The notes under the pieces: model-generated
The model's database searches: none
What the model saw: the letters and a program-made list of their open reading frames with translations, nothing else
Told to the model about the DNA's origin: nothing
In this document: piece by piece, positions 7,315 through 53,500 of the stretch
How the letters are laid out: every line of letters begins with the position of its first letter
Position numbering within the stretch: position 1 is the first letter of the stretch
DNA from: Spirochaetota bacterium
Lineage (GTDB): Bacteria; Spirochaetota; UBA4802; JAFGDQ01
Assembly: GCA_034190085.1 (NCBI GenBank)
Contig: JAXHTS010000071.1
Span: 3,032-67,031 of the forward strand
Direction of reading: 5' to 3'
Length of the DNA stretch: 64,000 bases
Translations under genes and position numbers: made by a program

Positions 7315-8187
7315 TTATTTCTTTAGTAAAGCTGCAGCAGTAACCCCAATCTCTGCGGCATTATCCACAACTGTTATTCCAGCATCTCGAAGAGCTTCCA
7401 TCTTTTCTGCAGCAGTACCCTTGCCTCCTGATATTATGGCTCCGGCATGTCCCATCCTCTTCCCCTTTGGAGCTGTTTGACCTGCTATGAAGGCTACAAC
7501 AGGCATTGATATATTCTTTTGTATAAAATCAGCTGCCTCGATTTCTAGAGTGCCGCCGATCTCGCCAATCATTACAACAGCTTCTGTTGCCGGATCCTCT
7601 TGAAAGAAAGAAAACAGTTCAATAAAACCTAACCCAATAATAGGGTCACCACCTATTCCGATAGCTGTTGTAATTCCAAGGCCTGATTTAACAACCTGGT
7701 TAACCGCCTCATAGGTAAGTGTGCCGGATTTGCTGATTAGCCCTACATTACCCTTCTTAAAAATAAAACCAGGAATAATGCCTACCTTAGCTTCGTCAGA
7801 GGTGAGTATTCCAGGACAATTTGGTCCGATTATTCTTGCGCCCCTTTTCGTTGCATAAGGTTTTGCCATTACCATATCTTTTACAGGAATTCCTTCAGTA
7901 ATGCATACAATCAATTCAATCCCAGCATCAGCAGCTTCCATAATTGCCTCTGCGGCAAAGAATGGGGGAACAAAGATTAGAGAAACATTAGCGCCTGTTT
8001 GAAGCACAGCCTCTTCAACACTATCAAACACAGGCCGTTCAAGATGAGTCTGCCCTCCCTTTCCAGGAGTCACACCACCAACAACGTTTGTCCCATAGTC
8101 TATACATTGTTGTGCATGAAATGTCCCTTCCTTTCCAGTAAATCCCTGTACAATAACCTTACTATCTCTGTTTACTAATATTCCCAT
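7315..8187 (-). CDS. sucD: Succinyl-CoA synthetase alpha subunit
   Basis: CoA-binding Rossmann fold ([12 protein letters not shown]), the catalytic His region ([14 protein letters not shown]) and the CPGI motif. 1-bp overlap with sucC. Confidence 0.9.
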
Positions 8188-9359
8188 TACTTCACCTCCT
8201 TCACCGCATCAACAGCCTTTTTAGCCCCATCAGCTAAATCGCCAGCTGCAATAATATTTTCAATGTCACTATTCTCTAAAATCTCTTTGGCAACATCACA
8301 ATTTGTGCCATCTAACCTGACAACAATAGGCACCTCAACCTTTGTCATTTTTGTTGCTTCTATAATTCCATTTGCTACCCTATCGCATCGAACAATTCCG
8401 CCGAATATGTTTACAAATATTGCCTTAACATTTTGGTCTGCTAATATAATCTCAAACCCCTTTGCCACTGTTTCCGGGCTAGCTGTGCCTCCGACATCAA
8501 GGAAATTAGCAGGTTCTCCGCCATAAAACTTTATTATATCCATAGTTGACATGGCTAAGCCCGCTCCATTAACCATACAACCTACATTGCCATCAAGTTT
8601 TACATAACTTAAATTGTGCTTGCCAGCTTCAGTTTCACTGGGTTCCTCTTCATCCAAATCCCTTAACTCTTCAATGTCCTTATTCCTGTCCAAGGCATTA
8701 TCATCAAATCCCATCTTTGCATCTAAAGCGAGAAATTTTCCTTCATCAGTTTTTATTAGCGGATTGATCTCCACCATATTCGCATCTTTATTCATATAGG
8801 CCTTATACAAGGCCTTTGCAAATCTGATGAATTCCTTTGTCTCATCCTTCGAAAGCCCCAAACCCTTTGCTAATTTTCTTCCATGATAACCAAGAAATCC
8901 TGTGGACGGATCAATGGCAGCCTGTACAATTTTTTCAGGAGTTTTTGATGCAACCTCTTCAATCTCCACACCACCTTCAGAAGAAGCCATAATTACATGC
9001 ATCTCCTTGGACCTATCCAGGACCATCCCAAGATAGTACTCAGCTTGAATATTTGCACCCTCTTCAATATAAATCTTCTTTACTTCTTTACCCTCCGGAC
9101 CGGTCTGATGGGTTATAAGCGTCTTCCCTAATATTTCATTAGCGAACTCCTTAACCTCATTAATGCTCTTTGCAAGTTTCACACCACCGGCTTTACCTCT
9201 GCCACCAGCGTGAATCTGAGCTTTTACGACCCACACCTTACCACCAAGCTTTTTTGCATTCTCAACAGCCTCTTCAGGTGTAAACGCCACATGCCCTCTT
9301 GGAGTAGGGACATTATAGTCTCTTAAAATTTCCTTTGCTTGATATTCGTGAATATTCAT
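8187..9359 (-). CDS. sucC: Succinyl-CoA synthetase beta subunit (ATP-grasp)
   Basis: [19 protein letters not shown]-terminus and ATP-grasp motifs. Translationally coupled to sucD. Confidence 0.9.
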
Positions 9360-10216
9360 ATCCTCCTCTCTTCTTATCTCAATATTTATAACTAGACTGA
9401 TCCTACAACTTCTATAATTTAATCTGGAATTTCAGCTTCACGCTCATCTTCCTGTCAACTTAGATCAATCTAAATCCACTAATTTAATAATAAAACATCC
9501 TTCACTTACTATTTTTATAATACACTAACCCCTTATCGGAAACTCAAATCAAAAATAATCCTATTTATAAATTTAGTATTAGAATTTACAGAAGCATTAA
9601 GCACAGGTCTCTTCAGTAAAATTTCCCCATTTCAAGTAACCTGTAAACCGCTTTTAAGATGCCTGACTATTGTTAAATTATTAACTCTATGGTTATATAT
9701 AAAATTCGGAGCGAAGATAAATCGGAAATTCCAAATGTCAAGAGAAAATGATATAATTATTAGCAAAAAAGGGAACCCAACTTTATCCATTCCCAGAACG
9801 ACATTTCATCAATCAATAGCAAATACAGAAATATTAATTTTTATTGACAGATTCAACATTAACAATTCATGTTGGTAAAATAATTCGTAATTCAAGTTAT
9901 TATTTTTTTATAATTATAATAATATATCTACTCTTTCAAGGTATCGAATATTGAAATGTTTATTAGTGTCAATCATTTCAATAAAGATATTTTCTCATTC
10001 ATTACACAAATAATATTATTTTGAGACAATGATTCAAGACTTATTTTGATTGTTGCTAGCTTAATCCAAAAGAGCATGATGAAGGGATTCAAATGAGAAT
10101 TATGAGTTCAAAGGAGTAAGTTGACCGTACATATTTGATTATAGTAAGACCCTTGAATCTCAAACAACTTTCTCGACAGAGTCGCCTATCTCGCTAAGAA
10201 TTTAAGGAGTTATACC

Positions 10217-12301
10217 ATGAGTACTTCAAGTTTTATTCTACTACTATTAATTTTTATATCTGTAGGTTGGTTTGGATACAGGGTTACTCAACTCTTATGG
10301 GTGCTGCGCCTTGGTCAACCAGAGGATAGATTTGACAACATTGCCCAAAGGATAATGAATGTAGTAATATTTGTGCTTGGCCAAAGGCGTGTAGTTAAAG
10401 AGATATCCGGTTGGGGACATTTCTTTATATTTTGGGGTTTTGTTGTAATTCAAATCGGCGCGTTGGAACTTTTTGCTCAGGGTTTCTTTAGAGATTTCAA
10501 ATACGACAAAATAGCAGAAGAACTAATCGGAACTCCTATTATTGGAGAGATACTTTATCTAATTATAGATATAATCTGTTTCATCGTTCTCATTGCCTTA
10601 ATGATAGGGCTTGTACGAAGATATATGCTTAAACCTGTAAGACTGGAGGCAAAGGATCCACATGCGAAGGTTGATGCAACAGTAATAATCATATTAATAT
10701 CACTAATTATTCTTACACTCTTCGGTATTAACGGAGCTGAGCTCTCTGAGAAACTTGCAGAAGATAATTTCAGCGCAATTGACAGATTTAATATGATACA
10801 GATTGCGGGACTAAGGCTCGATCTATTCATGCCTATATCCTCATTGTTTTCATATTTATTCTCTGGGGCTAGCCATACAACAGCCGAATCTATTAGAGAC
10901 GTATTCTGGTGGATACATATCATTATAATATTAGGTTTTTTAGTTTATATTCCTTACTCAAAGCATCTACATCTTCTGGGCGCTATTCCTAATGTATTCT
11001 TTAAATCATCAAAACCAGTTGGAGAACTCGCTCAACTCGACATAGACGATGAAGAGGCTGAAACATTCGGAGCCTATAGAATTGAAGATTTTACATGGAA
11101 GCAGATGCTTGATCTTTATGCATGCACTGAATGCGGAAGATGCCAGGAGAACTGTCCCGCATATCTAACAGATAAACCCCTAAGCCCAAAAGAGCTTATT
11201 CATGATCTAAAGCTTAATCTATTAAAACGAGGATTGATGCTTATTGAAGATGAAAAAGAGAGGGAAACGGATGAGGCCAAAGAATATTTAGAAAAGCCAT
11301 TAGTGGATGGCATATTGGAAGAAGAGGCCATCTGGGCATGCACAAATTGTATGAATTGTCAGGAACATTGCCCGGTTTTCATTGAGCATGTACAGAAAAT
11401 TATTGATATAAGGAGATATCAGGTTCTGACAGAGGGGAAAATGGCCACAGAATTACAGACCACCTTTACAAATATGGAAAACAACTACAATCCCTACGGA
11501 TTCGCCTTTGCTGCTAGGGCTGATTGGGTTACTGAAGACCTAGGACTAAAAACACTCTCCGAAGATTCAGAAGTTGATTATCTATACTTTGTGGGTTGCG
11601 CTGCTTCATACGATAAAAGGAATCAGGATATTGCAAGGCTACTTGTGAAAATACTGAAAAAGGCTGGATTGAAGGTGGGGATTTTAGGTTCTGAAGAAGC
11701 ATGCTGCGGTGATTCAGCATTGAGAGCCGGGAATGAGTATCTCTTCCAGACTTTAGTTACACAGAATATAGAGACATTGAATTCATACAACGTTAAAAAA
11801 ATTATAACAACATGCCCACACGGATTTAATGTTATCAAGAATGAATATCCCAAGTATGGGGGTAACTATGAGGTATATCATCATATAGATTTACTGGCCA
11901 ATCTCATAGAGGAGGGCAAATTAACCTTAACCAATCCAGTAAACGAAAAGGTCGCTTATCATGATTCATGCTTCCTCGGTAGATATAACGAAATATATTT
12001 AGCGCCAAGAAAGATATTACAAGCTATACCCGGTATAGAATTAGTAGAGATGAGTAAAAATCATAATAAGAGCATATGTTGCGGGGCTGGCGGAAGCAGG
12101 ATGTGGATAGAAGAAAAAATTGGGAAAAGGATTAATCAATACCGAACCGAAGATTTCAAAAATTCAGGGGCTAACGTAGTAGCAACGGCTTGCCCATTCT
12201 GTATGACAATGCTTTCAGATGGAATAGTGGAGATCGGACTCGATGAGAATACATACTCTGCTTACGATATACTAGAGCTTGTAGACAAAGCTCTTGCCTA
12301 G
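10217..12301 (+). CDS. Membrane-bound Fe-S oxidoreductase: NarI/HdrE-like cytochrome-b membrane domain fused to an HdrD-like domain (2x[4Fe-4S] + 2xCCG); 694 aa
   Basis: About 6 N-terminal TM helices with conserved His (GWGHFF, WWIHIII, SKHLHLL). Two ferredoxin motifs: CTECGRCQENCP and CTNCMNCQEHCP. Two CCG-type Cys clusters: CCGDSA...TTCPHG and CCGAGG...ACPFC. Strong AAGGAG RBS. Confidence 0.75.
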   Translation: MSTSSFILLLLIFISVGWFGYRVTQLLWVLRLGQPEDRFDNIAQRIMNVVIFVLGQRRVVKEISGWGHFFIFWGFVVIQIGALELFAQGFFRDFKYDKIAEELIGTPIIGEILYLIIDIICFIVLIALMIGLVRRYMLKPVRLEAKDPHAKVDATVIIILISLIILTLFGINGAELSEKLAEDNFSAIDRFNMIQIAGLRLDLFMPISSLFSYLFSGASHTTAESIRDVFWWIHIIIILGFLVYIPYSKHLHLLGAIPNVFFKSSKPVGELAQLDIDDEEAETFGAYRIEDFTWKQMLDLYACTECGRCQENCPAYLTDKPLSPKELIHDLKLNLLKRGLMLIEDEKERETDEAKEYLEKPLVDGILEEEAIWACTNCMNCQEHCPVFIEHVQKIIDIRRYQVLTEGKMATELQTTFTNMENNYNPYGFAFAARADWVTEDLGLKTLSEDSEVDYLYFVGCAASYDKRNQDIARLLVKILKKAGLKVGILGSEEACCGDSALRAGNEYLFQTLVTQNIETLNSYNVKKIITTCPHGFNVIKNEYPKYGGNYEVYHHIDLLANLIEEGKLTLTNPVNEKVAYHDSCFLGRYNEIYLAPRKILQAIPGIELVEMSKNHNKSICCGAGGSRMWIEEKIGKRINQYRTEDFKNSGANVVATACPFCMTMLSDGIVEIGLDENTYSAYDILELVDKALA

Positions 12302-12388
12302 AATTGCTGGTTGTGAATACAAAGATAAGATTAAATAATATAAGCCAATATATAAATTTAACTTATAAAGGGGGAAGAATATCAATAA

Positions 12389-14506
12389 ATGAACATTCCT
12401 GAATTCTATGATATTCCTCCTACTGACATATCCCGAGAATTTTTTTTCAACATTGGCGGCACAAATGGTTTTATGAGATGGGGTATATACTTATACCTCA
12501 TCGTTGCTATTATCTATCTTTCTTTTACTCTCATTAAAAGGGTGAGAATATGGAGAAAAGGAAATGATGAGTTAAGGACTGATTTTCCCGAAAAGAGGAT
12601 TGTCGCTATATTTAAATATGTTTTCCTTCAAGTTAAGACCTTCAGGGAGGCATATGCAGGCACAATGCATGGATGTATCTTTTTTGGTTTTTTGGGATTG
12701 TTCATTGTAATGTCACTTATTGGTCTTCAACATTATTTCACGGATCTGCTTTTCAATACAAAATTCATCTACGGTAACATATATTTAATATGGTCACTTA
12801 TAGGAGATTTCTTCGGCTTGATTATCATTACTGGTATTGTAATGGCATTCAGGAGAAGATATATATTAAAACCCAATCGGCTAGACACAAAGCCAATTGA
12901 TACATTTACCCTGATCCTCATTTTACTCATAGTTATTACGGGTTTCTTTAGTGAAGCCATGAGGATAGCAATTAGCGGCTTCCCTGAATTTGAAGTTTGG
13001 TCTCCCTGCGGTTATATACTTTCCCTTGCCTTTTCATTTTCAGACACACCGACAATTGAAGTAGCTCATTATATTAACTGGTGGATTCACACAATATCGG
13101 CTTTTGGATTCATCGGATTATTGGCATCTGGGAAATTGGGACACATACTAATTTCTTCCCTAAATGTATATTATCAAAATTTAAATACTGAAAATCCAGA
13201 CACTAAATACACTTTCCATATTATCCACCCTGCAAAGGTTGAGGATGATGATACCATTGGCGTTTCCAGGGTAGAGGAGTTTACCTGGAAGCAGCTTATG
13301 GATTGTGACGCATGTATGAGATGCGGCAGATGTCAGGACAGGTGTCCTGCTTACATAACCGAGAAACCATTATCACCAAAAAATATGATAAATGATATTA
13401 AGAATAACATGGATATTAGAATACCAAAACTGATAACAGCAGAAGATCCGACAAAAGTTGAATCACAAGCTCTAATAGGTGGCTCTGTTTTAGAAGATGT
13501 GATTTGGTCCTGTACAAATTGTGCTGCATGTCAGGAGGTCTGTCCAGTTCAGATTGAACATATGAATAAGATAACAGACATGAGACGGCATCTGGTTCTC
13601 AAAGAGAGAAAGATTTCAAGAGAACTTCAGACAGCCTTTAATAATATAGAAGAAAATTCCAATCCCTTTGGAATTTCATTTGCATCAAGGGGTGACTGGA
13701 TTACTGAAGAACTGGGTATTAAAGCCCTTTCCAAGGATCCGGATGTTGACTTTCTATATTTTGTTGGATGCTCAGCATCTTATGATAAGAGGAACCAGAA
13801 GGTAGCCTCTGCGTTGGTGAAAACATTGAAGATGGCTGGTTACAAAATTGGCATTCTTGGGTCTGAAGAAGCATGCTGTGGGGATTCTGCTATGAGAACA
13901 GGGAATGAATATCTATTCCATACACTTGCAGCGCAGAATCTTGAAACCTTTAATAACTATGGAGTAAAAAAGATCATTACCACATGTCCTCATGGATACA
14001 ACATCCTAAAAAAAGAATATCCAGAATTTGCCAAGGTTGGCGTTGATTCATATAATAATCCCTTGGAGTGCAATTATGAGGTCTATCATCATACAGAGAT
14101 TATTGCTGATCTATTACGTAAGGGACAGATCAAAATAACTAATGCCCTAATCGGAAAGATTACATATCACGATTCCTGCTTTCTCGGAAGATATAATAAG
14201 ATATATAATTACCCAAGGGATATTATCAGGGCAATACCTGGCACCGAGTTCATTGAGATGAACTGGCATCATAAGACAAGTTTTTGCTGTGGTGCAGGAG
14301 GTGGACTCATGTGGCTTGATGAAAATTTGGGAAGCAGGATTAATCAATTCAGAACAAAAGATGCACATGATACAGGTGCTACGAAAATAGGGACAGCTTG
14401 TCCATTCTGCTTGACAAAGATAACTGATGGTATTACTGAGCTTGATATTCAGAATATGGAAACCTGTGATATAGTGGAACTTGTATATAACTTAATGGAA
14501 AAATAA
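12389..14506 (+). CDS. Paralogous membrane-bound HdrE::HdrD-like Fe-S oxidoreductase, 705 aa (same architecture as the upstream gene)
   Basis: Same domain order. WWIHTISAF and GKLGHIL His in the membrane domain. CDACMRCGRCQDRCP and CTNCAACQEVCP. CCGDSAM...TTCPHGYN and CCGAGGG...ACPFC. Roughly half the residues are shared with the first copy. Confidence 0.75.
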   Translation: MNIPEFYDIPPTDISREFFFNIGGTNGFMRWGIYLYLIVAIIYLSFTLIKRVRIWRKGNDELRTDFPEKRIVAIFKYVFLQVKTFREAYAGTMHGCIFFGFLGLFIVMSLIGLQHYFTDLLFNTKFIYGNIYLIWSLIGDFFGLIIITGIVMAFRRRYILKPNRLDTKPIDTFTLILILLIVITGFFSEAMRIAISGFPEFEVWSPCGYILSLAFSFSDTPTIEVAHYINWWIHTISAFGFIGLLASGKLGHILISSLNVYYQNLNTENPDTKYTFHIIHPAKVEDDDTIGVSRVEEFTWKQLMDCDACMRCGRCQDRCPAYITEKPLSPKNMINDIKNNMDIRIPKLITAEDPTKVESQALIGGSVLEDVIWSCTNCAACQEVCPVQIEHMNKITDMRRHLVLKERKISRELQTAFNNIEENSNPFGISFASRGDWITEELGIKALSKDPDVDFLYFVGCSASYDKRNQKVASALVKTLKMAGYKIGILGSEEACCGDSAMRTGNEYLFHTLAAQNLETFNNYGVKKIITTCPHGYNILKKEYPEFAKVGVDSYNNPLECNYEVYHHTEIIADLLRKGQIKITNALIGKITYHDSCFLGRYNKIYNYPRDIIRAIPGTEFIEMNWHHKTSFCCGAGGGLMWLDENLGSRINQFRTKDAHDTGATKIGTACPFCLTKITDGITELDIQNMETCDIVELVYNLMEK

Positions 14507-14527
14507 AATAATAAGGAGTATTGATAT

Positions 14528-16855
14528 ATGGAAGTTAATTTATTCTACATTGCACCAATAGGTTCACTTGTTGCCCTCCTTTTTGCATGGTTCTTCTACA
14601 AGAACATGATGAAGGCGGATGAAGGCAACGAGACAATGATAGAGATTGCGGGTCATGTAAGAGAGGGGGCTTTGGCTTATCTTATAAGGCAGTATAAGGT
14701 TGTAACGATTGTATTTATCGTTCTTCTTATAATCCTATCGCTTTTGGCCTTTTTGGGTGTTCAAAATCCATTTGTGCCTGTTGCTTTTCTAACAGGCGGC
14801 TTTTTTTCTGGACTATGCGGCTATCTTGGGATGAGAACAGCTACAAATGCCTCATCCAGGACAGCCTATGGAGCTTCTCAATCGCTGAATAGAGGATTGA
14901 GGGTGGCTTTCAGATCTGGCGCTGTGATGGGCTTGGTTGTAGTTGGATTCGGTCTCATCGATATTTCTATCTGGTATCTGGTTCTCAATTATCTATATGA
15001 CAATAATGTCTGGGGGCTCAGTCAATCTCTAATTGAAAAGGTTGGCATTGCAGGTGGAGTATATAATGAAGGTCTGATTGCTTCTCCTGATTTTAAGCAT
15101 GCAAAGCTTGTTGAGATCACTACTACTATGATTACCTTTGGAATGGGTGCATCAACCCAGGCACTCTTTGCAAGGGTCGGAGGCGGCATATTTACAAAGG
15201 CTGCTGATGTAGGAGCTGACCTTGTTGGCAAGGTTGAGGCAGGAATTCCAGAGGATGATCCCAGAAATCCTGCTACTATAGCTGATAATGTTGGCGATAA
15301 TGTTGGCGATGTTGCGGGTATGGGTGCTGACCTCTATGAATCATACTGTGGTTCAATTCTTGCAACCGCTGCTCTTGGTGCGGCATTACCAATTTCATCC
15401 GGTTATGGTGGATTAAAGGCTGTGATCGCACCCATGATCGTCGCAGGTCTCGGTATTATCTTTTCAATCCTCGGCATTTTCGCTGTCAAGACGAAAGAAG
15501 AGGCATCAATGAAGAATCTACTCAAGTCTTTGAATCTGGGTGTATGGGGCAGTTCAGTTCTTATACTTATAGCATTAGCTGTAATGGTGCAAATAGGACT
15601 AATAAACTGGGGAATATTTGGCGCTGTTATTGCCGGACTCATTGCTGGACTTATTATTGGTCAATCAACAGAGTACTATACCTCAGATGAATATAAACCA
15701 ACACAGGGGATAGCAGATCAAGCCAGGATGGGATCCGCTACAACAATTATTGAAGGTATTGCAACTGGAATGTATTCAACCGGGATACCTGTTATTACAA
15801 TAGTAATTGGTATTCTAGTTGCTTTTGGTTTATCCGGAGGATTCACAAATATTTCACAAGGTCTTTATGGTATTGGATTTGCTGCAGTGGGGATGCTCTC
15901 AACGTTAGGGATTACACTGGCAACGGATGCATATGGTCCCATCGCAGACAATGCCGGCGGCAATGCAGAGATGAGTGGATTGGATCCAAAAGTAAGAGAA
16001 CGTACAGATGCCCTAGATATGCTTGGCAATACAACCGCTGCAACAGGAAAGGGATTCGCTATCGGTTCCGCAGCGTTAACAGCCATGGCACTGCTCTCAG
16101 CCTATCTTGAAGAGGTGAAACTCTGGCTTGGGAAACTGGCTGGAAGCGAGTTTTTCCAGGTGGGTACGATTAAGTTCTATAATATATTGCCTGATGGCGT
16201 CACCCTTGGGCCAAATGATGTAATCGCTCATAGCGCTAAAATGGCTGACTTTGTTAGGGCATATGATATTACACTCATGAATCCGAAGGTACTTTGTGGA
16301 CTATTTCTTGGCGCCATGATGGCATTTGTATTCAGTGCTATGACCATGAAGGCTGTTGGTAGGGCCGCTGGATCAATGATCGAGGAAGTAAGAAGGCAAT
16401 TCAGGGAAAAGCCCGGCATTCTTGATAAAACAGAGAAACCTGATTATGCCCAGTGCGTAGCCATCTCTACAGCCGGAGCTCAGAAAGAAATGATTGTACC
16501 ATCCCTTTTGGCGATTATAGCACCTGTTCTTACAGGTTTATTTCTTGGTGTTTCCGGTGTTATGGGTCTTCTAGCTGGTGGTTTGACCGCTGGTTTCTCT
16601 CTGGCATGTATGCTAAATAATGCTGGAGGAGCCTGGGACAATGGCAAAAAATATATCGAAAAAGGACACTATGGCGGCAAAGGCTCAGAGGCTCATAAGG
16701 CAGGAGTTGTTGGGGATACAGTTGGCGATCCATTCAAAGACACTTCAGGTCCTTCACTAAATATCCTTATCAAACTAATGACCATGGTCTCAGTTGTATT
16801 TGCTGGTGTCGTGATCAAATTCTCACCTGAAATAGGTAAGATACTGGGCTTCTGA
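14528..16855 (+). CDS. hppA: Membrane-integral proton/sodium-translocating pyrophosphatase, K+-dependent type
   Basis: 775 aa with 15-16 TM. Conserved [12 protein letters not shown] and [18 protein letters not shown] motifs. Ala rather than Lys in GNTTAA marks the K+-dependent subfamily. 21-bp gap from the upstream gene. Confidence 0.9.
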
Positions 16856-16879
16856 ATATAGCTTGTACTATCTATATTT

Positions 16880-16924
16880 TAATTTACTCCTTTCCTTAGT
16901 CTTGATAGGGAAAGGAGTAAATTA
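16880..16924. terminator. 16-bp near-perfect inverted repeat (TTATTTACTCCTTTCC / GGAAAGGAGTAAATAA, 13-nt loop) between convergent hppA and metXW; putative bidirectional terminator lacking a U-tract
   Basis: Read directly. It sits 25 bp after the hppA stop and 26 bp after the metXW stop. Confidence 0.35.
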
Positions 16925-16949
16925 GATACAATGTAATTTACTCGTCTAA

Positions 16950-18704
16950 TCACTTCTTAGTTATCTTCACAATAACCCGATCAGCCCCTATATTGTATCT
17001 TTTAAGATATGTAAAGATATGACTTGTTATCCCATTGGGTATAGAAACAACTTCAAGAATTGAAATATCATTCTCCATGCAAAAATCCTTGAAATCATTC
17101 AATGAAAGAAAATGAATATTAGGAGTGTTATACCACTTATTTGTCATTTTTTGAGAAAGAGGCAGACATCCCTTGATCGATAAGACAACTCTCTGCTTCC
17201 AGTTGGCAAAATTGATAAATGAGACAATACCCATCCTTGCCACCCTGAGCATTTCTGTTAATACAAGATGCGGCTTATGTACCTCCTGAAGTGTACGGGA
17301 TAGGATCGCGTAATCATAAAAATTATCAGGGATCATGCCAAGACCTTCATCAAGGTCAACCTGAAATACTGACACACCCTTTCTGTTGCATTCGATTATA
17401 TTCTTAACATCTATATCAATGCCATGCACTGATACACTATCCCTTATTAGCATCTTTTGTAGAAATGATCCATCTCCACAACCTAAATCAAGAAGCTTGC
17501 TTGAAGGCTTTATCATTCGTGCAATGATCTCAAAATCCTTGATATGAGCTTCATCAAAAATTTGATCTTTCTTATTACTAGAATAAGGATCCTCAAAAAA
17601 GGAATATATTAAGCTATTTAGATCACTATTACTAATCAGAAATGAATCGTGCCCAAATTGAGATGCCAAATTACAATAGGTCACATCTTTACCAGATATA
17701 AGCAGGTTTTCAGCCAACTCCTTTGATTGCTCTGCTGGATAAAGCCAGTCTGAGGAGACAGAAATGATAAAAAATTTAGACTCCAATTTTCTGAATACCT
17801 CATCAAGCGACCCACCCCTTTCTGTAAGGGAGAAGGAGTCCATGGCCGCAGTAATATAGAGGAAGGAATTTGCATCAAAACGTTCTACAAAACTTCTACC
17901 CTGATAGTCTAGATAACTTTCAACCTGAAAATCCGTATTAAAGGGACTCCTTTCTCTATCTTCACGCCTCTCTCTACCGAACTTTACATCCATTGATTCC
18001 TTGGAAAGATAGGTTATATGACCAATCATACGTGCAAGTGATAATCCCTTATTTGGAATATCTCTACCATAATAATAACCATCATTCCATAAGGGATCAG
18101 CCATGATAATATTGCGAGCAACAATATCAAAAGAGAGAGCCTGGGCTGATAGGCTCTCAGTAGCGGCTATGCATACAGCCTTTTCAATAAAGTCTGGATA
18201 GCGCACACACCACTCGAGAACCTGAAGACCTCCTGCTGACCCCCCTATCACTCCATAGAGCCTCCTTATACTAAGTAAATCAAGCAACTTCTTTTGGAGT
18301 TCAACCATATCCCCAATCGTGATTTCAGGAAAGTTCGTAGCATAAATCTCTCCTGTCGCTGGATTTATGGATGATGGACCAGTTGTACCCTTGCATCCGC
18401 CCAAAATATTTGAACAGATAACATGAAACCTCTCAGTATCAATTCCTTTGCCAGGTCCGATCATATTATCCCACCAACCCACACTCTTTTCATCATTGGT
18501 ATGATAACCAGCAGCATGAGCATCCCCTGATAGGGCATGACATACCAGAATGACATTATCACCCTTTTCAGATAATTTTCCATATCGCTCAAAGGCAACC
18601 TCCACCCTGGAGAGCGTACCTCCCCTCTCGAGTTTAAAATCCCCATCTGGAAGAGGAATACCCATAATCTCTGTGTGAACGATTCCAATAGATCTTTTGT
18701 TCAT
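16950..18704 (-). CDS. metX: Homoserine O-acetyltransferase MetX fused to a MetW-like methyltransferase-fold domain (584 aa)
   Basis: The N-terminal ~370 aa is an alpha/beta-hydrolase MetX (MGIPLPDGDFKLERGG..., GGSAGGLQ nucleophile elbow GxSxG). The C-terminal ~200 aa is MetW-like (LDLGCGDGSFL SAM-binding motif I). 1-bp overlap with metY. Confidence 0.8.
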   Translation of the reverse strand: MNKRSIGIVHTEIMGIPLPDGDFKLERGGTLSRVEVAFERYGKLSEKGDNVILVCHALSGDAHAAGYHTNDEKSVGWWDNMIGPGKGIDTERFHVICSNILGGCKGTTGPSSINPATGEIYATNFPEITIGDMVELQKKLLDLLSIRRLYGVIGGSAGGLQVLEWCVRYPDFIEKAVCIAATESLSAQALSFDIVARNIIMADPLWNDGYYYGRDIPNKGLSLARMIGHITYLSKESMDVKFGRERREDRERSPFNTDFQVESYLDYQGRSFVERFDANSFLYITAAMDSFSLTERGGSLDEVFRKLESKFFIISVSSDWLYPAEQSKELAENLLISGKDVTYCNLASQFGHDSFLISNSDLNSLIYSFFEDPYSSNKKDQIFDEAHIKDFEIIARMIKPSSKLLDLGCGDGSFLQKMLIRDSVSVHGIDIDVKNIIECNRKGVSVFQVDLDEGLGMIPDNFYDYAILSRTLQEVHKPHLVLTEMLRVARMGIVSFINFANWKQRVVLSIKGCLPLSQKMTNKWYNTPNIHFLSLNDFKDFCMENDISILEVVSIPNGITSHIFTYLKRYNIGADRVIVKITKK

Positions 18705-20897: not shown

Positions 20898-21557
20898 CTA
20901 CTCACCAAGATAGAGATCCTCCCAGTAACTATTCAGGATATTTAATGTTGAGCCCTCCCACTCCAGAACTCCCCTCTTTTTTAAACGAAGAATAAGTCTG
21001 GAAAATGTTTCAGGGATGGTTCCTATTACAGAGGCTATATCCTTTTTGGACAGCTTAATATCATAGGAGTCCTTTTTTCCGTAACGATCGACAAGAAACA
21101 TAAAAAAGCGTTCCTCAACATCATAAGAGGTTAGATAAAGGATTCTGTTAGTAAGATAGCGCATTCTCTTCATTAATATTGCAATAAACTCATTACGGAA
21201 GTCAGATTGGTCTAATAAGACGTAAAATGAAAAACGCTGGATGGCAAAGAGAGAAGCATCTGTAACAGCCACTGCGCTAACAGGATAGCAATTATTTTCA
21301 AAGAGTATCGTTTCAGCGAATACTTCATTAGGCTTCACGAGTCTAATGGTTATTTCCCTCCCATCTGGCGCGGCTTTATAAAGCTTCACACTCCCTTCAG
21401 CAAGAATATAAAAGGTAGAACCGACATCCTCTTCTAAGAAGAGTATCTCATTACGGGAGATTGAAATAATTGAGCCCTGTTTGGCTATTTCTCCTCTGGC
21501 AGAAAGGCTGATATCTCTGAAGAATTCGGTTTTTTTCAAAAGATCATCTATGTCCAT
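20898..21557 (-). CDS. Crp/Fnr-family transcriptional regulator, HcpR-like
   Basis: cNMP-binding beta-roll followed by a C-terminal HTH (DIASVIGTIPETFSRLILRLKKRGVL). No N-terminal Cys cluster, so it is not FNR proper. Divergent from hcp. Confidence 0.75.
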   Translation of the reverse strand: MDIDDLLKKTEFFRDISLSARGEIAKQGSIISISRNEILFLEEDVGSTFYILAEGSVKLYKAAPDGREITIRLVKPNEVFAETILFENNCYPVSAVAVTDASLFAIQRFSFYVLLDQSDFRNEFIAILMKRMRYLTNRILYLTSYDVEERFFMFLVDRYGKKDSYDIKLSKKDIASVIGTIPETFSRLILRLKKRGVLEWEGSTLNILNSYWEDLYLGE

Positions 21558-21615
21558 AACATGACAGTGTTACTATTTTAGGTTAGAAATTGCAATAAGG
21601 ATTTTTTAATGCTAA

Positions 21616-21629
21616 TTGACATAGGTCAA
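21616..21629. promoter_or_regulatory. Candidate Crp/Fnr (HcpR) operator: TTGAC-ATAG-GTCAA palindrome, 77 bp upstream of the hcp start
   Basis: Perfect 5-4-5 palindrome read directly. A further TTGAC half-site lies 12 bp downstream. It sits in the hcpR/hcp divergent intergenic region. Confidence 0.45.
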
Positions 21630-21705
21630 TGAGTCTTTGACGGATAGGTTGTATAAATTGCATAAGAAAAATTCAAATGATTAAGTTAATATTTAGGAGG
21701 TTAAA

Positions 21706-23346
21706 ATGAGCATGTTTTGTTATCAATGCCAGGAAACAGCTAAGAATAGAGGCTGTTCAGTTAAAGGAGCCTGTGGGAAAACGGATGAAACTGCCAATCT
21801 GCAGGATTTGCTGATCTTTGTCTTAAAGGGAATATCAATCTTTGGAGAGGAAGCCAAGAAACAGGGTATAGAGGACCCAAAGTTAGGATTATTTATTTCT
21901 CAGGCCCTCTTTACTACTATTACGAATGTAAATTTTGATAGTGATAGAATAATTTCACTTATTCAAGAAGGTCTAAAAATAAAGGAAATATTGAAAAAAG
22001 AATATGAAAAAGCTCTACCAAGGGATTTGCATGAATCAGCGCTCTGGTTTTCAGACGATTTCGCTGAATTTCACAGGAAGGCAGCAGAGGTTGGTATTCA
22101 TTCTACTGAGAATGAAGATGTACGCTCACTCAGGGAACTATTGATTTATGGATTAAAGGGAATCGCTGCTTATGCTCATCACGCTGAGGTTTTAGGTTAT
22201 CGCAATCAGGATATCTATGATTTTCAGATAGATGGTCTAGCATCCACTACTAAAGATCTAACACAGGAAGAGATGGTGAATCTTGTGCTAAAAGCCGGTA
22301 AAATTGCTGTTGAGACAATGACATTGCTTGATGAAGCTAACACTCGGACTTATGGCAATCCTGAAATAACTGAGGTGGATATTGGCGTAAAAGATAATCC
22401 TGGGATACTAATCAGTGGTCATGATCTGAAGGACTTGGAAGAGCTTTTGGAACAGACCAAAGGGACGGGTGTGGATGTATATACTCATGGCGAGATGCTA
22501 CCAGCGAATTATTATCCAGCCTTTAAAAGATATAAGAATCTCATCGGCAACTACGGGGGATCGTGGTGGAGGCAGAAGGAGGAGTTTGAATCCTTCAATG
22601 GGCCAATTCTATTTACAACTAACTGCCTAGTGCCGCCAAGGGACTCCTATAAGGATCGAGTGTTCACAACCGATGTGGTTGGCTACCCGGGGATAAAGCA
22701 TATACCAGATAGAACAGATGAAGGGAGTAAGGATTTTTCGGAGATTATTGAGATGGCAAAAAAATGTCGTCCCCCTGTGGAAATCGAGTCTGGGAAGATA
22801 GTAGGGGGATTTGCTCACGATCAGATTATTACGCTTGCAGATAAAGTAATAGATGCCATTAAATCGGGCGCTATCAAGCGCTTTGTTGTTATGGCCGGTT
22901 GTGATGGGCGTCATAAAGAGAGAGATTATTTTACTGAAGTTGCACAAGGGCTTCCTGAGGATGCAGTAATACTAACAGCAGGCTGCGCTAAGTATAGATA
23001 CAACAAACTCAATCTTGGCGAAATAGATGGCATCCCTAGGGTGCTGGATGCGGGTCAGTGCAATGATTCTTACTCCCTTGCTGTAGTAGCCCTGAAATTG
23101 AAGGAAATATTCCAACTGGAAGACATAAATGAGCTTCCAATATCATACGACATCGCATGGTATGAGCAGAAGGCTGTTGCTGTTCTCCTGGCGCTCCTTT
23201 ACCTTGGCATTAAGGGGATTCGCCTGGGGCCTAGCCTTCCAGCATTTTTATCGACAAATGTTGTCAAGGTGCTTATAGAAAATTTTGATATCAAACCAAT
23301 TGGCAGAGTAAAAGCAGATATAAACAGCATTATGGCAGGGAAGTGA
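21706..23346 (+). CDS. hcp: Hybrid-cluster protein / hydroxylamine reductase
   Basis: N-terminal Cys motif [23 protein letters not shown] and hybrid-cluster ligands (546 aa). Confidence 0.9.
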
Positions 23347-50569: not shown

Positions 50570-53500
50570 TCAAAATAGTAGGGTGAGACTGAATCCAATC
50601 TCATAGGAGCGTATCTCCCTATTTATACCATTAGTGTCTCTATTCCTGAATCTCTCCAGTGCCCAACGCGCTGAAAGCCCCCCTTGAATATTCTTATGAA
50701 GATCCATTGTCAGTTTCCCGATTATCAGATGCTGGTCGTATGGCTCAGGAGAAACAGTATCCGAATAATCATATCTATTGAGTAAAAGAGAATATTCCAA
50801 ACTTATGATTGGCAATGATTCAAGTTCATATAAATTGGAGAATAGATTATATATCAATTGAACATCGGTTTCATATAAAATTGAAAAATTATATCCCCGC
50901 TCCCTCTCCTTGAATGAATCTATTATTTGCATATTAGTCACATAGATATCATCACTTTTCGACCTCTTTGATTCGTCTGTAGAAATATACTCCCTTCTTT
51001 TTCTTAGCCTGTAATCCATTCCAATGTTTAAGCTCAGACTTGTTCTGTCCCATTTAAATATTATTCCCATGTTTGGGGAATGGGTATCCTCTTCAATATT
51101 TGAAGTTATGATCATATTCCTACTAAAATCATACCCGGCATTCACACTTGCTGAATGATATGGCATCCCTATTACATTGGGCCTAAAAAACCAAAAATTG
51201 AAAATCTGCATAAGATCAATAATTATGTTTAGGTTATCGCTCACTGTGACTACCTGCTGAGGGGTTCCGTATATATTTTGTCGTTCGCTAACCTGATTTA
51301 AGCCCATTCCAAAATTCAGAACAATCCACCGGAAATCAAGAGTAGAGCTTACACCAATGTTATCAATCAATCTCAGATTGTTATTATAGTCTATGGCTGA
51401 TGATCCATTGGTATAATTTATCTCCCTGTTAAACTTTCTGTATGCATAATCTCTACCATTTGCAAAGTTTCCTCGCCCCATAAAAGGATACCATGGGGGG
51501 AAGTCAAAAGGATTCATACAAATGTCAGCAAATCCATTGTATACCCTCCTTATACCATAATCCTCATCAAGGGAGGATGTCCCCTCCCCCTCGTATGGAA
51601 CATCTATCTCTTGAAAGAATATAGATCGTGAATAACTAATATTTAAATTTCGAAAAAACTCCATCCCTTTTATCTTGTTGAAAGCGAAGGGCAAATCGAG
51701 TCGATTAGAGACTAGCGTGTTTGCATCTTTGGATCTAATATATTTATCTGATATTATCCTCTCACTATCATCGTAATCACTAAAATTATCCTCAATGTAG
51801 TTGAAGACCAATCTCAACTCTGGTGAGATCAGGGTTAGCTTCCTTAAACCAAAACTTAGTCCTATCTCTTTATCCCTTCCAACGAATTTAAAGTCCTTAT
51901 TGTATACAAAGGGGAGATGAAATCCACCATCAACCTCCGACAAAATCTCCATATCATTCTCATCCATCCTCCCCTTCAATTCAACGATCTCATGTGTGCT
52001 ACTATTAACAGATGGTTTGAAGAATAAAAATGAGTTTTGATAATCTGCGCGAATTTGAGCCCCACCCTTTTGCCTCTTCTCCACCTCGTTGAGTGAGATG
52101 AACTGCTCAAGCTCTCCCAGCCCCTTCTCAACAGAATTTCGTCCTATGTCTTCCTCCTGAAAAAATGCATCCATAACAATTGTAGTTGTTATGTTTCCCC
52201 AGAGTTTACTATTGATCCTATTTTGTAAAACCAAGGTTGGTGTGTAAACCTGGTTCTGGGTGTGTGCGTTGATCCTGAAATCCGATATATATCTCTCTTT
52301 CAGATTATCATATATATCCTGTTTGTATATCAACTTTATACTGGGGAAGATGTATTTATCAGATACAAAATCAGACTCAAATAAGAGACTCTTCTTCTCT
52401 GTCTCTCCTCTACTCTCTTCATGCACCTCTTCATTGAAGCTATCAGTTATTGAATCCTCAACTGAAAAATTTAATTGAACCCTCCAGTTTGGCAGAATGT
52501 TAATAGATGAAAAGACCTCATTGCTCTTCTCCCTAATATCATCCATTGTCTTCCCTATGGTGTTGAAGTTGTACCCATGCCCCTTTCCTATATACTTGAT
52601 AATAAAATCTGATAACACCGGTGTGCCGATATCGGATATATACAATGGTCTCTTAAAGGAAATCTTCCCCTCATACCAGTAAGCGCTATCCCGCAGCATT
52701 TCTGGTTCACTGACATACATGTCGTTTACCCAGAATTTTCCGCTATTTACGCCACTAATCCCAATTTCAATAAATGAGATCCTTTTCATATCTGGATTAC
52801 CGGCAATATTACTAATCTCGACATCACCATTAGATCCGCTCTTAAGCTTCAATCTTATCTCCCTCCATATGCCAATATAATCCATTGAAAATCCATACTC
52901 ATAATAATCATCCTCTGATGATCCGATCTTTAGGGTTATTGAATCACCAATTGAAAACTCCCTGAAGTTAAACCATATATTCATTGTCTTGTAAAATCTG
53001 ATGTCCATCGGACGTAAGAACTTTCTGGAAGCAGAACCCGTTGAATTGTCATACTCAATCTGGAGCGCTGTCTCCCTCTCTTTTGATAATTCTACATCAT
53101 TTTTATCCCCATATAGAGATTCATAATTATTATTAACCAAAGATATATATGACTCAGCCCTATAATCGGCATCATTTAAAGTATCAACCTTAGTAATACG
53201 AAGAGATCCACTGTCGTCCCTCCAACTCGAAGATACAAATCGAATGCTGTTAATATAAATAGTACCCTTTACCGCGCTATTCCTCAAAAGATAGAGCCTT
53301 AATGACTCCACCTGTTTAAGGATTTCGATCTGACTGTCATCGATTCTATCTCTATCCAGATAAATTCTAATATTTTCCCAATCAGTATTGGATCCATCAA
53401 TGGATATTGCAGAGGATGGAGTTGTGAATACCCCTGGGAGGGTGATTACATGTTCATCTTTATCAAGTATCCCATTCCTATTGAGGTCTTCACTATTGAG

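What the first reader, a model, noticed from the sequence alone, without database searches (positions are those of the whole stretch)
10217..16855. Apparent operon: two tandem paralogous HdrE::HdrD-like membrane Fe-S oxidoreductases followed by a K+-dependent membrane pyrophosphatase
What the sequence shows: both 700-aa proteins combine a NarI/HdrE-type di-heme-like membrane domain, two C-x2-C-x2-C-x3-CP ferredoxin motifs and two CCG (DUF224) domains. They are roughly half identical to each other. Gaps of 87 bp and 21 bp place them in one transcriptional unit with hppA.

What is established: this fused architecture is that of the membrane 'Fe-S oxidoreductase' of syntrophs (proposed quinol-dependent reverse electron transfer partner of EtfAB) and of DsrMK/HdrED modules.

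What is inference: here no etfAB, dsr or hdrABC partner is adjacent. Instead, the partner is an ion-pumping PPase. That suggests a compact module in which a PPi-generated ion gradient energises endergonic quinol-linked thiol/disulfide or flavin redox chemistry. Duplication of the oxidoreductase implies two substrate specificities. I know of no such gene triad described as a unit.
Basis: partly seen in the sequence, partly recalled or inferred. Interest (0 to 1): 0.62.

Follow-up and report, generated by a model that had tools for sequence, protein, structure and literature searches.

The report
Two ETF-quinone oxidoreductases beside a pyrophosphatase
The three genes are real, but the two "HdrED-like" proteins belong to the recently solved EtfD/EMO family, which passes fatty-acid-oxidation electrons to menaquinone, and the sodium-type pyrophosphatase next to them looks like an inherited neighbour rather than a proven partner.

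Summary
Three same-strand genes lie at 10217-12301 (A), 12389-14506 (B) and 14528-16855 (hppA), separated by 87 and 21 bp.

A and B match the cryo-EM structure of M. smegmatis EtfD (9OJN) over their full length. Both keep the three haem histidines, all eight cubane cysteines, and the non-cubane-cluster ligands. A capping His and a Gly replace the catalytic Cys of heterodisulfide reductase. They are therefore ETF:(methyl)menaquinone oxidoreductases, not thiol/disulfide enzymes.

They are not recent duplicates. Overall identity is 43%: 28% in the membrane domain and 57% in the soluble part. A falls with the etfB-etfA-EMO operon proteins. B belongs to a clade of uncultured Spirochaetota.

hppA carries the K+-dependent signature and the Na+-type gate (E6.53).

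B followed by hppA recurs in 12 of 43 related loci and is co-inherited. An unrelated neighbour, metX/metW, is retained just as often (14 of 41). Most relatives have a terminator-like hairpin between the two genes. Only this window lacks it and also carries A.

A PPi-powered reverse-electron-transfer module remains possible but unproven. I rate this a new member of a known kind, of modest interest.

The parts
9360..10216 (.). 858-bp AT-rich intergenic region between divergent sucC (-) and EMO-A (+). It presumably holds the promoter(s) of the A-B-hppA unit. An AAGGAG ribosome-binding site lies at about 10205-10210.
   Evidence: Sequence read. Only weak (9/12) promoter-like matches at 9853-9881, 9992-10019 and 10173-10201. 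No Rfam family. No ORF longer than 52 aa. No Crp/Fnr-type palindrome in this region.
10217..12301 (+). EMO-A, an EtfD/EMO-family membrane ETF:(methyl)menaquinone oxidoreductase of 694 aa. It has a 5-TM cytochrome-b domain (aa 1-262; His68, His234, His252), an HdrC-like 2x[4Fe-4S] domain (aa about 291-405) and an HdrB-like non-cubane-cluster domain with two CCG motifs (aa about 451-694; C-P-H535-G536).
   Evidence: Pfam. 9OJN match at E=1e-119 over the whole length. AlphaFold2 model with pLDDT 84 and pTM 0.79. Foldseek against 9OJN gives TM 0.85/0.80 and E=4e-39. Ligand columns. Nearest relatives (about 51% identity) are all in etfB-etfA-EMO clusters.
12302..12388 (+). A-B intergenic gap of 87 bp. 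It has no significant secondary structure, a GGGGGAAG ribosome-binding site before B, and one weak promoter-like match at 12311-12339.
   Evidence: Fold z-score +0.5, with 141 of 200 shuffles folding as well.
12389..14506 (+). EMO-B, a second EtfD/EMO-family oxidoreductase of 705 aa. His94, His234 and His252 are the haem ligands. All cubane and non-cubane-cluster cysteines are present, as is C-P-H535-G536. It has a 26-aa N-terminal extension that A lacks. It is the lineage-conserved copy, with 60-68% orthologues in many uncultured Spirochaetota/'Leptospirales' MAGs.
   Evidence: 9OJN match at E=1e-106. The AlphaFold2 model was poor (pLDDT 58.7, shallow alignment), so the fold is inferred from sequence homology only.
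14507..14527 (+). B-hppA junction of 21 bp, with an AAGGAG ribosome-binding site and no hairpin. Most relatives carry a strong terminator-like hairpin at the equivalent position.
   Evidence: Relatives: z -3.1 to -7.8 and 0 of 200 shuffles in L009, L019, L023, L025, L042, L044 and L049.
14028..14056 (+). Best sigma-70-like match of the region (TTGCCA-17-TATAAT, 11/12), inside the B coding sequence. It is a possible internal promoter for hppA and a caveat to the single-operon reading.
   Evidence: The total of promoter-like matches was not above the shuffle expectation (22 found against 28 expected), so it may be chance.
14528..16855 (+). hppA, a membrane-integral pyrophosphatase of 775 aa. It has the K+-dependent signature ([10 protein letters not shown]: Ala12.46, Gly12.49) and the gate Glu at 6.53 (GADLYES), which is the Na+ (or Na+/H+) pumping type. 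It carries an insertion of about 55 aa (aa about 530-584) relative to Vigna H+-PPase.
   Evidence: Pfam at 879 bits. NCBIfam NF001954 at 1011 bits against a cut-off of 894. Alignment to 4A01. Residue rules from PMC10897367. The same motifs occur in all 11 full-length EMO-linked orthologues.
16878..16926 (.). 21-bp perfect inverted repeat between convergent hppA (+) and metX-metW (-). It is probably a bidirectional transcription terminator closing the unit.
   Evidence: Sequence. RNAfold -29 kcal/mol, z -6.1, 0 of 200 shuffles.

Best explanation
Genes A and B encode two anciently diverged members of the EtfD/EMO family. These are single-chain membrane enzymes. An HdrB-like pair of non-cubane Fe-S clusters takes electrons from reduced electron-transferring flavoprotein (ETF), which is loaded by acyl-CoA dehydrogenases. 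An HdrC-like pair of [4Fe-4S] cubanes relays the electrons, and a NarI-like haem-b domain delivers them to (methyl)menaquinone. They are not disulfide reductases.

B is the copy native to this clade of uncultured, probably anaerobic, fatty-acid-oxidising Spirochaetota. A comes from the clade normally encoded in etfB-etfA-EMO beta-oxidation operons. A differs from B mainly in the membrane (haem/quinone) domain, so the two most likely differ on the quinone or energetic side rather than in the donor.

The third gene encodes a K+-dependent, Na+-type ion-pumping pyrophosphatase. Its position after B is an old, vertically inherited neighbourhood of this lineage. In relatives it is usually punctuated by a terminator-like hairpin and has been lost repeatedly. 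In this genome the hairpin is gone and A has been added, so the three genes are probably co-transcribed here.

Any functional link is indirect and not a complex. PPi from acyl-CoA synthetase would be converted into membrane potential, and that potential could help the uphill ETF-to-menaquinone step.

Shown: the family assignment, the ligand set, the phylogenetic split, the synteny statistics and the hairpins. Inferred: the ETF donor, the quinone acceptor, co-transcription, and any energetic coupling.
For: Family. Full-length matches to the solved M. smegmatis EtfD 9OJN for A and B. The model of A superposes on 9OJN with TM 0.85/0.80. The three haem His, eight cubane Cys, the non-cubane-cluster Cys and the capping His are all present, matching the residues defined in the SaEMO and MsEtfD structure papers.

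ETF link. All four A-clade relatives examined lie directly after etfB-etfA, with fadD, FadL, thiolase, enoyl-CoA hydratase or acyl-CoA dehydrogenase nearby. More distant homologues, including L048 and L053 beside the B clade, also flank etfAB. An acyl-CoA dehydrogenase with a TetR gene lies just beyond the window end.

Not duplicates. In the NJ tree A branches with the etfBA-linked clade and B with the Spirochaetota clade. The two clades show a swapped R-x-x-E / E-x-x-R motif at the end of TM4 and differ at the N-terminus. Identity is 28% in the TM domain against 57% in the soluble part, and GC3 is uniform, which argues against recent import.

Synteny. hppA follows the B-orthologue in 12 of 43 informative loci plus L062, and in none of about 40 more distant EMO loci. 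EMO and hppA identities co-vary, which indicates co-inheritance. The control neighbour metXW is retained in 14 of 41 loci. Terminator-like hairpins lie between EMO and hppA in 7 of 9 distinct relatives. A decayed PPase sits next to an intact EMO in L022.

Window-specific compaction. The 21-bp and 87-bp gaps have no structure, and one strong hairpin follows hppA.

Ecology. Uncultured Spirochaetota that express butyrate and isobutyrate oxidation genes together with ETF:quinone oxidoreductase in digesters have been reported in PMC7382037.
Against: No etfAB was found in the 64-kb window or the roughly 12 kb of added flank, so the donor is inferred from homology only.

No transcript data exist. An 11/12 promoter-like site inside B could make hppA independent even here.

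In relatives the two-gene EMO-hppA block is flanked by opposite-strand genes on both sides. Several gaps (77-99 bp) leave little room for a separate promoter after the hairpin. The pair could therefore be an attenuated operon there, which would favour a real functional link.

The adjacency survives across deep divergence, with EMO identity down to 59% within the clade and 44% for L062.

The model of B was too poor to test its fold.
Confidence: 0.6

Rival explanations
1. Dedicated PPi-powered reverse-electron-transfer module. The Na+-PPase is co-expressed with the EMOs so that PPi hydrolysis builds the membrane potential. That potential drives electrons from ETF across the membrane to a periplasm-side (methyl)menaquinone site, a SaEMO-type reverse redox loop. 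It would replace the ATP-driven pumping proposed for Syntrophus.
For: SaEMO is proposed to be driven by proton-motive force. Here the three genes are packed with 87-bp and 21-bp gaps and a single terminal hairpin. The EMO-hppA pair is co-inherited over deep divergence and forms an isolated two-gene same-strand block in relatives. A membrane PPase is up-regulated with butyrate in digester syntrophs (PMC7082340). Fatty-acid activation yields PPi (textbook knowledge).
Against: The adjacency is confined to one lineage and is no better conserved than that with unrelated metXW. 31 of 43 clade members lack it. Terminator-like hairpins separate the genes in most relatives. L022 keeps the EMO while its PPase has lost its catalytic motifs. 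The PPase gate is Na+-type, so it supplies membrane potential and a Na+ gradient, not the protons that the distal quinone site consumes. Whether B has the SaEMO distal-site residues could not be settled.
Confidence: 0.2
2. The two proteins are HdrED/DsrMK-type quinol-linked thiol/disulfide (heterodisulfide or DsrC-like) reductases.
For: Domain order is the same as in a fused HdrE plus HdrD. There are weak NCBIfam similarities to HdrB, HdrC, DsrK, TmcB and HmcF. The closest folds after EtfD are HdrB chains.
Against: All those NCBIfam scores are far below their cut-offs, for example DsrK 51 and 77 bits against 400, and HdrB 41 and 33 against 345. His535 occupies the CoM-site position, and Gly536 replaces the bridging catalytic Cys, as in non-catalytic SaEMO. 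No dsr, hdrA or thiol-cofactor genes are in the window.
Confidence: 0.03
3. One or both paralogues take electrons from a donor other than ETF, for example a lactate, glycolate, glycerol-3-phosphate, succinate-type or DgcB/FadF-like partner dehydrogenase. They would use the same Fe-S/haem wire to the quinone pool. This would explain why no etfAB is nearby.
For: CCG/non-cubane-cluster domains serve many dehydrogenases, including GlpC, GlcF, LutA/LldE, TfrB and archaeal Sdh. B-clade genes are stand-alone in most genomes. The divergent neighbours are sucCD, and mdh and fumarase are on the same contig.
Against: The full three-domain fusion with the haem-b domain is the EMO/EtfD architecture specifically. 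The closest structural and sequence match over the full length is EtfD. Homologues of both clades occur next to etfAB. Per the EMBO paper, EtfD lies close to the etfAB genes only 'in some bacterial genomes'.
Confidence: 0.12

Closest known systems
SaEMO, the ETF:methylmenaquinone oxidoreductase of Syntrophus aciditrophicus (SYN_02638; cryo-EM, bioRxiv 10.64898/2026.08.18.745454)
   Same: Single chain of about 700 aa (706 against 694 and 705). It has a 5-TM NarI-like domain with three conserved His at the same 18-residue spacing (H233/H251 against H234/H252). It has two cubane clusters and two non-cubane clusters. The His-Gly pair (H534-G535 against H535-G536) predicts a capped FeS3 and a Cys-deficient FeS4 of the [4Fe:5S] type, and both Cys of the first CCG motif are kept.
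   Different: In SaEMO-type organisms etfAB is adjacent, whereas here it is not. No PPase is linked to SaEMO, and its driving force is attributed to an ATPase.
Mycobacterial EtfD (M. smegmatis 9OJN; M. tuberculosis Rv0338c)
   Same: It is the best solved-structure match for both A and B over the full length. Cofactor-ligand positions are the same. Its function is to link beta-oxidation, via ETF, to menaquinone.
   Different: MsEtfD has C-T in the first CCG motif and C-P-H-C, giving a linear [3Fe-4S] cluster. A and B have C-C and C-P-H-G. MsEtfD carries a disordered C-terminal tail of about 265 aa that is absent here, and it binds a single haem. Identity is about 35%.
HdrDE, the membrane heterodisulfide reductase of Methanosarcina
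   Same: The same three modules (cytochrome b, 2x[4Fe-4S], two CCG/non-cubane-cluster domains) and a predicted similar overall structure.
   Different: HdrDE is two subunits rather than a fusion. It has a catalytic, solvent-open non-cubane site with a bridging Cys, which here is capped by His and replaced by Gly. Its substrates are methanophenazine and CoM-S-S-CoB, which bacteria lack.
K+-dependent Na+-pumping membrane pyrophosphatase (Thermotoga maritima TmPPase, 4AV3/5LZQ)
   Same: Ala12.46 and Gly12.49 (K+-dependent) with the gate Glu at 6.53. It gives a full-length H_PPase match.
   Different: The protein is overall closer in sequence to Vigna H+-PPase (520 against 469 bits). It carries an insertion of about 55 aa after TM12. 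A Na+/H+ dual specificity cannot be excluded from sequence.

Membership tests
EtfD/EMO (membrane ETF:(methyl)menaquinone oxidoreductase) | One polypeptide with an N-terminal 5-TM NarI-like cytochrome-b domain, an HdrC-like 2x[4Fe-4S] domain and an HdrB-like double-CCG (non-cubane-cluster) domain | tested here: met
   Pfam CCG x2 plus Fer4. Full-length alignment to 9OJN for A and B. The model of A has five long helices plus short connectors after TM1 and TM4, and superposes on 9OJN at TM 0.85. The model of B was too poor to use.
EtfD/EMO (membrane ETF:(methyl)menaquinone oxidoreductase) | Three conserved haem-ligand histidines (SaEMO H87/H233/H251; MsEtfD H78/H223/H241) | tested here: met
   A has H68/H234/H252 and B has H94/H234/H252. 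They are conserved in 91/91, 90/91 and 91/91 aligned homologues. Definitions.
EtfD/EMO (membrane ETF:(methyl)menaquinone oxidoreductase) | Eight Cys of two cubane [4Fe-4S] clusters and the Cys ligands of two non-cubane clusters, with a His capping FeS3 (SaEMO H534; MsEtfD H583) | tested here: met
   All are present in A and B. H535 is conserved in 91/91 homologues. C-P-H-G is as in SaEMO.
EtfD/EMO (membrane ETF:(methyl)menaquinone oxidoreductase) | ETF as the electron donor (genetic linkage to etfBA in many genomes; physical ETF binding) | tested here: inconclusive
   No etfAB in the window or the added flanks. A's relatives are etfBA-linked in 4 of 4 look-ups. B's orthologues are mostly stand-alone. 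Binding cannot be tested in silico here.
EtfD/EMO (membrane ETF:(methyl)menaquinone oxidoreductase) | Haem b content and menaquinone/methylmenaquinone reduction | not testable with these tools
   This needs haem staining, redox titration and quinone assays.
SaEMO subtype (twin distal haem, reverse redox loop driven by proton-motive force) | Distal-site residues E22, A101/Ser, H109 and E187 (Ca2+), and a TM helix II position that leaves room for the twin haem | tested here: inconclusive
   The SaEMO sequence and coordinates were not obtainable. At the end of TM4 the B clade has invariant E189-x-x-R192, while the A clade has R-x-x-E (A: N172-G-A-E175). Which residue equals E187 is unresolved.
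HdrDE / HdrBC heterodisulfide reductase | Catalytic non-cubane clusters with a displaceable bridging Cys (HdrB C81/C234) and an open substrate site; scores above the HdrB/HdrC model cut-offs | tested here: not met
   Gly536 replaces the Cys and His535 caps the site. NCBIfam HdrB scores 41 and 33 bits against 345, and HdrC 43 and 34 against 160.
DsrMK (sulfate-reduction complex module) | DsrK equivalog score; separate DsrM; dsr gene context | tested here: not met
   DsrK scores 51 and 77 bits against a cut-off of 400. The protein is fused. No dsr genes are in the window.
K+-dependent Na+-type membrane pyrophosphatase | Ala at 12.46 and Gly/Ala at 12.49 (K+ dependence); semi-conserved Glu at 6.53, not 6.57 | tested here: met
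   [10 protein letters not shown] and GADLYES, aligned to VrPPase 4A01, where E301 (6.57) faces Gly in the window protein. Rules. The ion actually pumped cannot be tested here.

The most novel reading that the evidence does not exclude
In this Spirochaetota lineage an old EMO-hppA neighbourhood has been welded into a true three-gene operon. A Na+-pumping pyrophosphatase would turn the PPi released by fatty-acid activation into membrane potential. That potential would directly power uphill ETF-to-menaquinone electron transfer through a SaEMO-like enzyme (B). A second EMO with a very different membrane domain (A) would work at another quinone site or in another direction. This would be a PPi-driven reverse redox loop, possibly with two quinone sites on opposite membrane faces.
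Probability: 0.15. Interest if true: 0.6.

Novelty: new member of a known kind. Interest (0 to 1): 0.3.

Why it matters
If the energetic link were real, some anaerobic fatty-acid oxidisers would pay for their hardest redox step, ETF to menaquinone, with pyrophosphate rather than ATP. That is relevant to the energy budget of syntrophy.

As it stands, the value is mainly in annotation. Two genes labelled '(Fe-S)-binding protein / heterodisulfide reductase-related' can be named EtfD/EMO-type ETF:menaquinone oxidoreductases. One genome holds one member of each of two deeply split EMO clades that differ chiefly in the haem/quinone domain. That makes it a natural pair for testing what sets the direction and energy coupling in this newly solved family.

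Tried and rejected
- Rfam scan of the whole window: no hits.
- Crp/Fnr-type palindrome search: none in the upstream region and no enrichment.
- Small ORFs or gene relics in the 858-bp upstream region: nothing.
- tblastn for etfA, etfB, TetR, fadD and FadL relics in the window: nothing.
- The genome-contig scan with B alone returned only 10 loci. The survey therefore rests mainly on the metagenome scan, which keeps the 80 best of 527 and is biased towards B-like sequences.
- The AlphaFold2 model of B from 15 close orthologues was poor (pLDDT 58.7), so it was not used for fold search.
- I tried to identify the SaEMO sequence among 331 collected homologues by its published residue numbers. I also looked for it in supplements and in the Agne et al. 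paper. Both failed, so neither paralogue could be assigned to the twin-haem subtype.
- My first idea was that A lacks the E187-like Glu. I withdrew it after finding a conserved Glu three residues later in the A clade.
- The tool's terminator scan missed the bulged hairpin in L025, which RNAfold and the shuffle test detect.
- The third protein-database search and the representative-library search were not used, because no open question justified their cost.

Full report
**1. Observation**

All are on the + strand, with gaps of 87 and 21 bp. They form an isolated same-strand block. Divergent sucCD lies upstream, beyond an 858-bp AT-rich spacer. A convergent metX-metW fusion lies downstream.

Pfam finds two CCG domains and a 4Fe-4S dicluster domain in both A and B, and a full-length H_PPase domain in the third protein. 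Both C-x2-C-x2-C-x3-C-P motifs are present in each.

Two details need correction. A and B are 43% identical, not about half. The NarI Pfam model is only marginal in B (22.7 bits against a cut-off of 22.9) and absent in A.

**2. What A and B are**

Both proteins match a single solved structure over their full length: M. smegmatis EtfD, PDB 9OJN (E=1e-119 and 1e-106). An AlphaFold2 model of A (pLDDT 84, pTM 0.79) superposes on 9OJN with TM-scores 0.85/0.80. HdrB chains come next, and NarI is only a weak hit. The model of B was poor (pLDDT 58.7), so B rests on sequence homology.

Two 2026 structure papers define the family.
- Mycobacterial EtfD (PMC13083937).
- The Syntrophus aciditrophicus ETF:methylmenaquinone oxidoreductase SaEMO (bioRxiv 10.64898/2026.08.18.745454).

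Their defining residues are all present here.
- Three haem histidines: A H68/H234/H252 and B H94/H234/H252, with the same 18-residue spacing as SaEMO H233/H251.
- Eight cubane cysteines.
- The cysteines of the two non-cubane clusters.
- The histidine that caps cluster FeS3.

These columns are conserved in essentially all of 91 aligned homologues.

Both proteins read C-P-H-G. That is the SaEMO state (H534, G535), in which His blocks the site that binds CoM in heterodisulfide reductase and Gly replaces the bridging catalytic cysteine. NCBIfam models for HdrB, HdrC and DsrK score far below their cut-offs. The proteins are therefore electron wires from ETF to the quinone pool, not thiol/disulfide reductases. 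No curated NCBIfam model reaches its cut-off, which explains the generic public names '(Fe-S)-binding protein' and 'heterodisulfide reductase-related'.

**3. A and B are not recent duplicates**

B has many 60-68% identical orthologues, all from uncultured Spirochaetota or 'Leptospirales' MAGs. A has no relative above about 52%.

In an NJ tree of 91 homologues, A sits on a long branch with a clade whose genes follow etfB-etfA. B sits inside the Spirochaetota clade.

All four A-clade relatives whose context I retrieved lie in etfB-etfA-EMO clusters. These clusters also carry acyl-CoA synthetase, FadL, thiolase, enoyl-CoA hydratase or acyl-CoA dehydrogenase.

The divergence between A and B is concentrated in the membrane domain: 28% identity there against 57% in the soluble Fe-S part. 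The clades differ in three ways.
- At the periplasmic end of TM4 the A clade has R-x-x-E and the B clade has E-x-x-R.
- The B clade has an N-terminal extension of about 26 residues.
- They differ at the column that may correspond to SaEMO H109.

GC3 is uniform across the locus, so A is not a recent import.

I could not obtain the SaEMO sequence. Which paralogue, if either, has the twin-haem, proton-motive-force-driven distal site therefore remains open. An early idea that A lacks the E187-like glutamate was withdrawn.

**4. The pyrophosphatase**

Aligned to Vigna H+-PPase (4A01), the window protein has Glu at position 6.53 and Gly at 6.57 (GADLYES). It also has [10 protein letters not shown], that is Ala12.46 and Gly12.49. 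By the rules summarised in PMC10897367, this is a K+-dependent enzyme of the Na+ (or Na+/H+) pumping type.

The gradient the enzyme makes is chiefly electrical plus Na+. All 11 full-length EMO-linked orthologues share these motifs.

**5. Is the hppA neighbourhood meaningful?**

I collected 97 loci with EMO homologues and 10-kb flanks and scanned them with tblastn.

Among 43 informative B-clade loci, 12 have hppA (75-86% identical) directly downstream on the same strand, with gaps of 77-216 bp. One deep-branching sister, L062, has it too. None of about 40 more distant EMO loci has it, and none of the A-clade loci. No locus has a second EMO in tandem, so the triad is unique to this window.

EMO and hppA pairwise identities co-vary. 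hppA-linked members are scattered, often basally, through the B clade. This pattern fits one ancient linkage that was then inherited and repeatedly lost.

Three results argue against reading it as a dedicated module.
- An unrelated neighbour, divergent metX/metW, is retained just as often (14/41 against 12/43).
- In 7 of 9 distinct relatives the EMO stop codon is followed by a strong GC-rich hairpin. In several it is followed by a run of Ts, a classic terminator shape. The z-scores are -3.1 to -7.8, with 0 of 200 shuffles folding as well.
- In L022 an intact B-orthologue (63.5% identical) is followed by a 731-aa PPase relic. It is only 25% identical and its catalytic motifs are destroyed.

Some evidence points the other way. 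In relatives the pair is an isolated two-gene same-strand block. Some gaps are too short to hold an obvious promoter after the hairpin, so attenuated co-transcription is possible there.

**6. What is special in this window**

Both gaps lack any significant structure (z +0.5 and -1.25). A single 21-bp perfect inverted repeat (-29 kcal/mol, z -6.1) follows hppA. The ancestral inter-gene hairpin has therefore been lost and A has been added upstream. A three-gene operon is the simplest reading.

The caveat is an 11/12 sigma-70-like site inside B at 14028-14056. It could drive hppA separately, although promoter-like matches overall are not enriched.

**7. Mechanism**

The best-supported reading has four steps.
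- Acyl-CoA dehydrogenases reduce ETF.
- ETF docks on the non-cubane-cluster domain of A and/or B.
- Electrons pass through FeS4/FeS3, the two cubanes and haem b to menaquinone or methylmenaquinone.
- The PPase hydrolyses PPi, for example from AMP-forming acyl-CoA synthetases, and pumps Na+.

The ETF genes are not in the window. An acyl-CoA dehydrogenase with a TetR gene lies a few kb beyond the window end, on a Logan contig that overlaps it.

Uncultured Spirochaetota that oxidise butyrate and isobutyrate and express ETF:quinone oxidoreductase are known from digesters (PMC7382037). A membrane PPase is induced by butyrate in other digester syntrophs (PMC7082340). SaEMO is proposed to be driven by proton-motive force that an ATPase supplies.

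A contribution of the PPase to the membrane potential consumed by an EMO is thus physiologically reasonable. It is not demonstrated by anything in the sequence, and a physical complex is not expected.

**8. Comparison and novelty**

A and B are new members of the EtfD/EMO family. hppA is an ordinary K+-dependent Na+-type M-PPase. In the searched library I found no paper that mentions pyrophosphatase, EtfAB and methylmenaquinone together, and the SaEMO preprint does not mention pyrophosphate or pyrophosphatase at all.

The new points are modest.
- A lineage-restricted EMO-hppA synteny.
- Its local compaction into a probable operon.
- The co-occurrence in one operon of members of two deeply split EMO clades that differ mainly in the quinone/haem domain.

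**Verdict**

Interest is about 0.3. The PPi-driven reverse-loop reading keeps a probability of about 0.15-0.2.

Noticed in passing
L022:12209-14404 (+), directly downstream of a B-orthologue: A 731-aa ORF that is colinear with the clade's hppA, including the clade-specific insertion, but only 25% identical. Its catalytic motifs are destroyed (DNVGDNVGD to AETIGAGIAG; [10 protein letters not shown] to SGSADRGQYA). Pfam H_PPase scores 81 bits against 879 for the window gene. It is either a decaying pseudogene in a GC-rich genome or a catalytically dead PPase derivative.
   Followed up: partly
window 16106-16282 (hppA aa about 527-585): An insertion of about 55 aa between SAYLEE and NPKV relative to Vigna H+-PPase. 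It is also recognisable in the L022 relic, so it is a trait of this PPase clade. Its function is unknown.
   Followed up: no
window 9360-10216: An unusually long (858 bp), very AT-rich intergenic region between divergent sucC and EMO-A. It has no Rfam hit, no ORF over 52 aa and no recognisable gene relic.
   Followed up: partly
window 16950-18704 (-): metX (homoserine O-acetyltransferase, alpha/beta-hydrolase) and metW are fused into one 584-aa ORF here. They are separate adjacent genes in relatives (for example L098 7709-9515). In relatives they lie divergently upstream of the EMO, whereas here they lie convergently downstream of hppA, so the block has been rearranged.
   Followed up: partly
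L103:11986-16394 (about 1-5.5 kb beyond the window's end, same organism): Two-subunit class-I fumarase, a 612-aa acyl-CoA dehydrogenase and a TetR regulator follow malate dehydrogenase (window 62106-63044). Together with sucCD (7315-9359) this hints at a dicarboxylate/acyl-CoA metabolism that would feed ETF and the quinone pool.
   Followed up: no
B-clade loci (12 of 45 aligned, for example P0204 = L007 and P0239): A subset of the Spirochaetota EMO clade has lost the ligands of the distal non-cubane cluster (C461S, C496D, C497S, G536D in B numbering). This resembles the FadF/DgcB state mentioned in the EtfD paper. These enzymes would carry only one non-cubane cluster.
   Followed up: no
window 20898-23346: A Crp/Fnr-family regulator lies divergent from a hybrid-cluster protein (hcp). 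With thyX, feoAB and a DtxR-FeoA fusion nearby, this is consistent with an anaerobic lifestyle.
   Followed up: no
window 50570-56215 (-): A very large ORF (1881 aa) with no Pfam annotation on record in the matching Logan contig. It was not examined.
   Followed up: no
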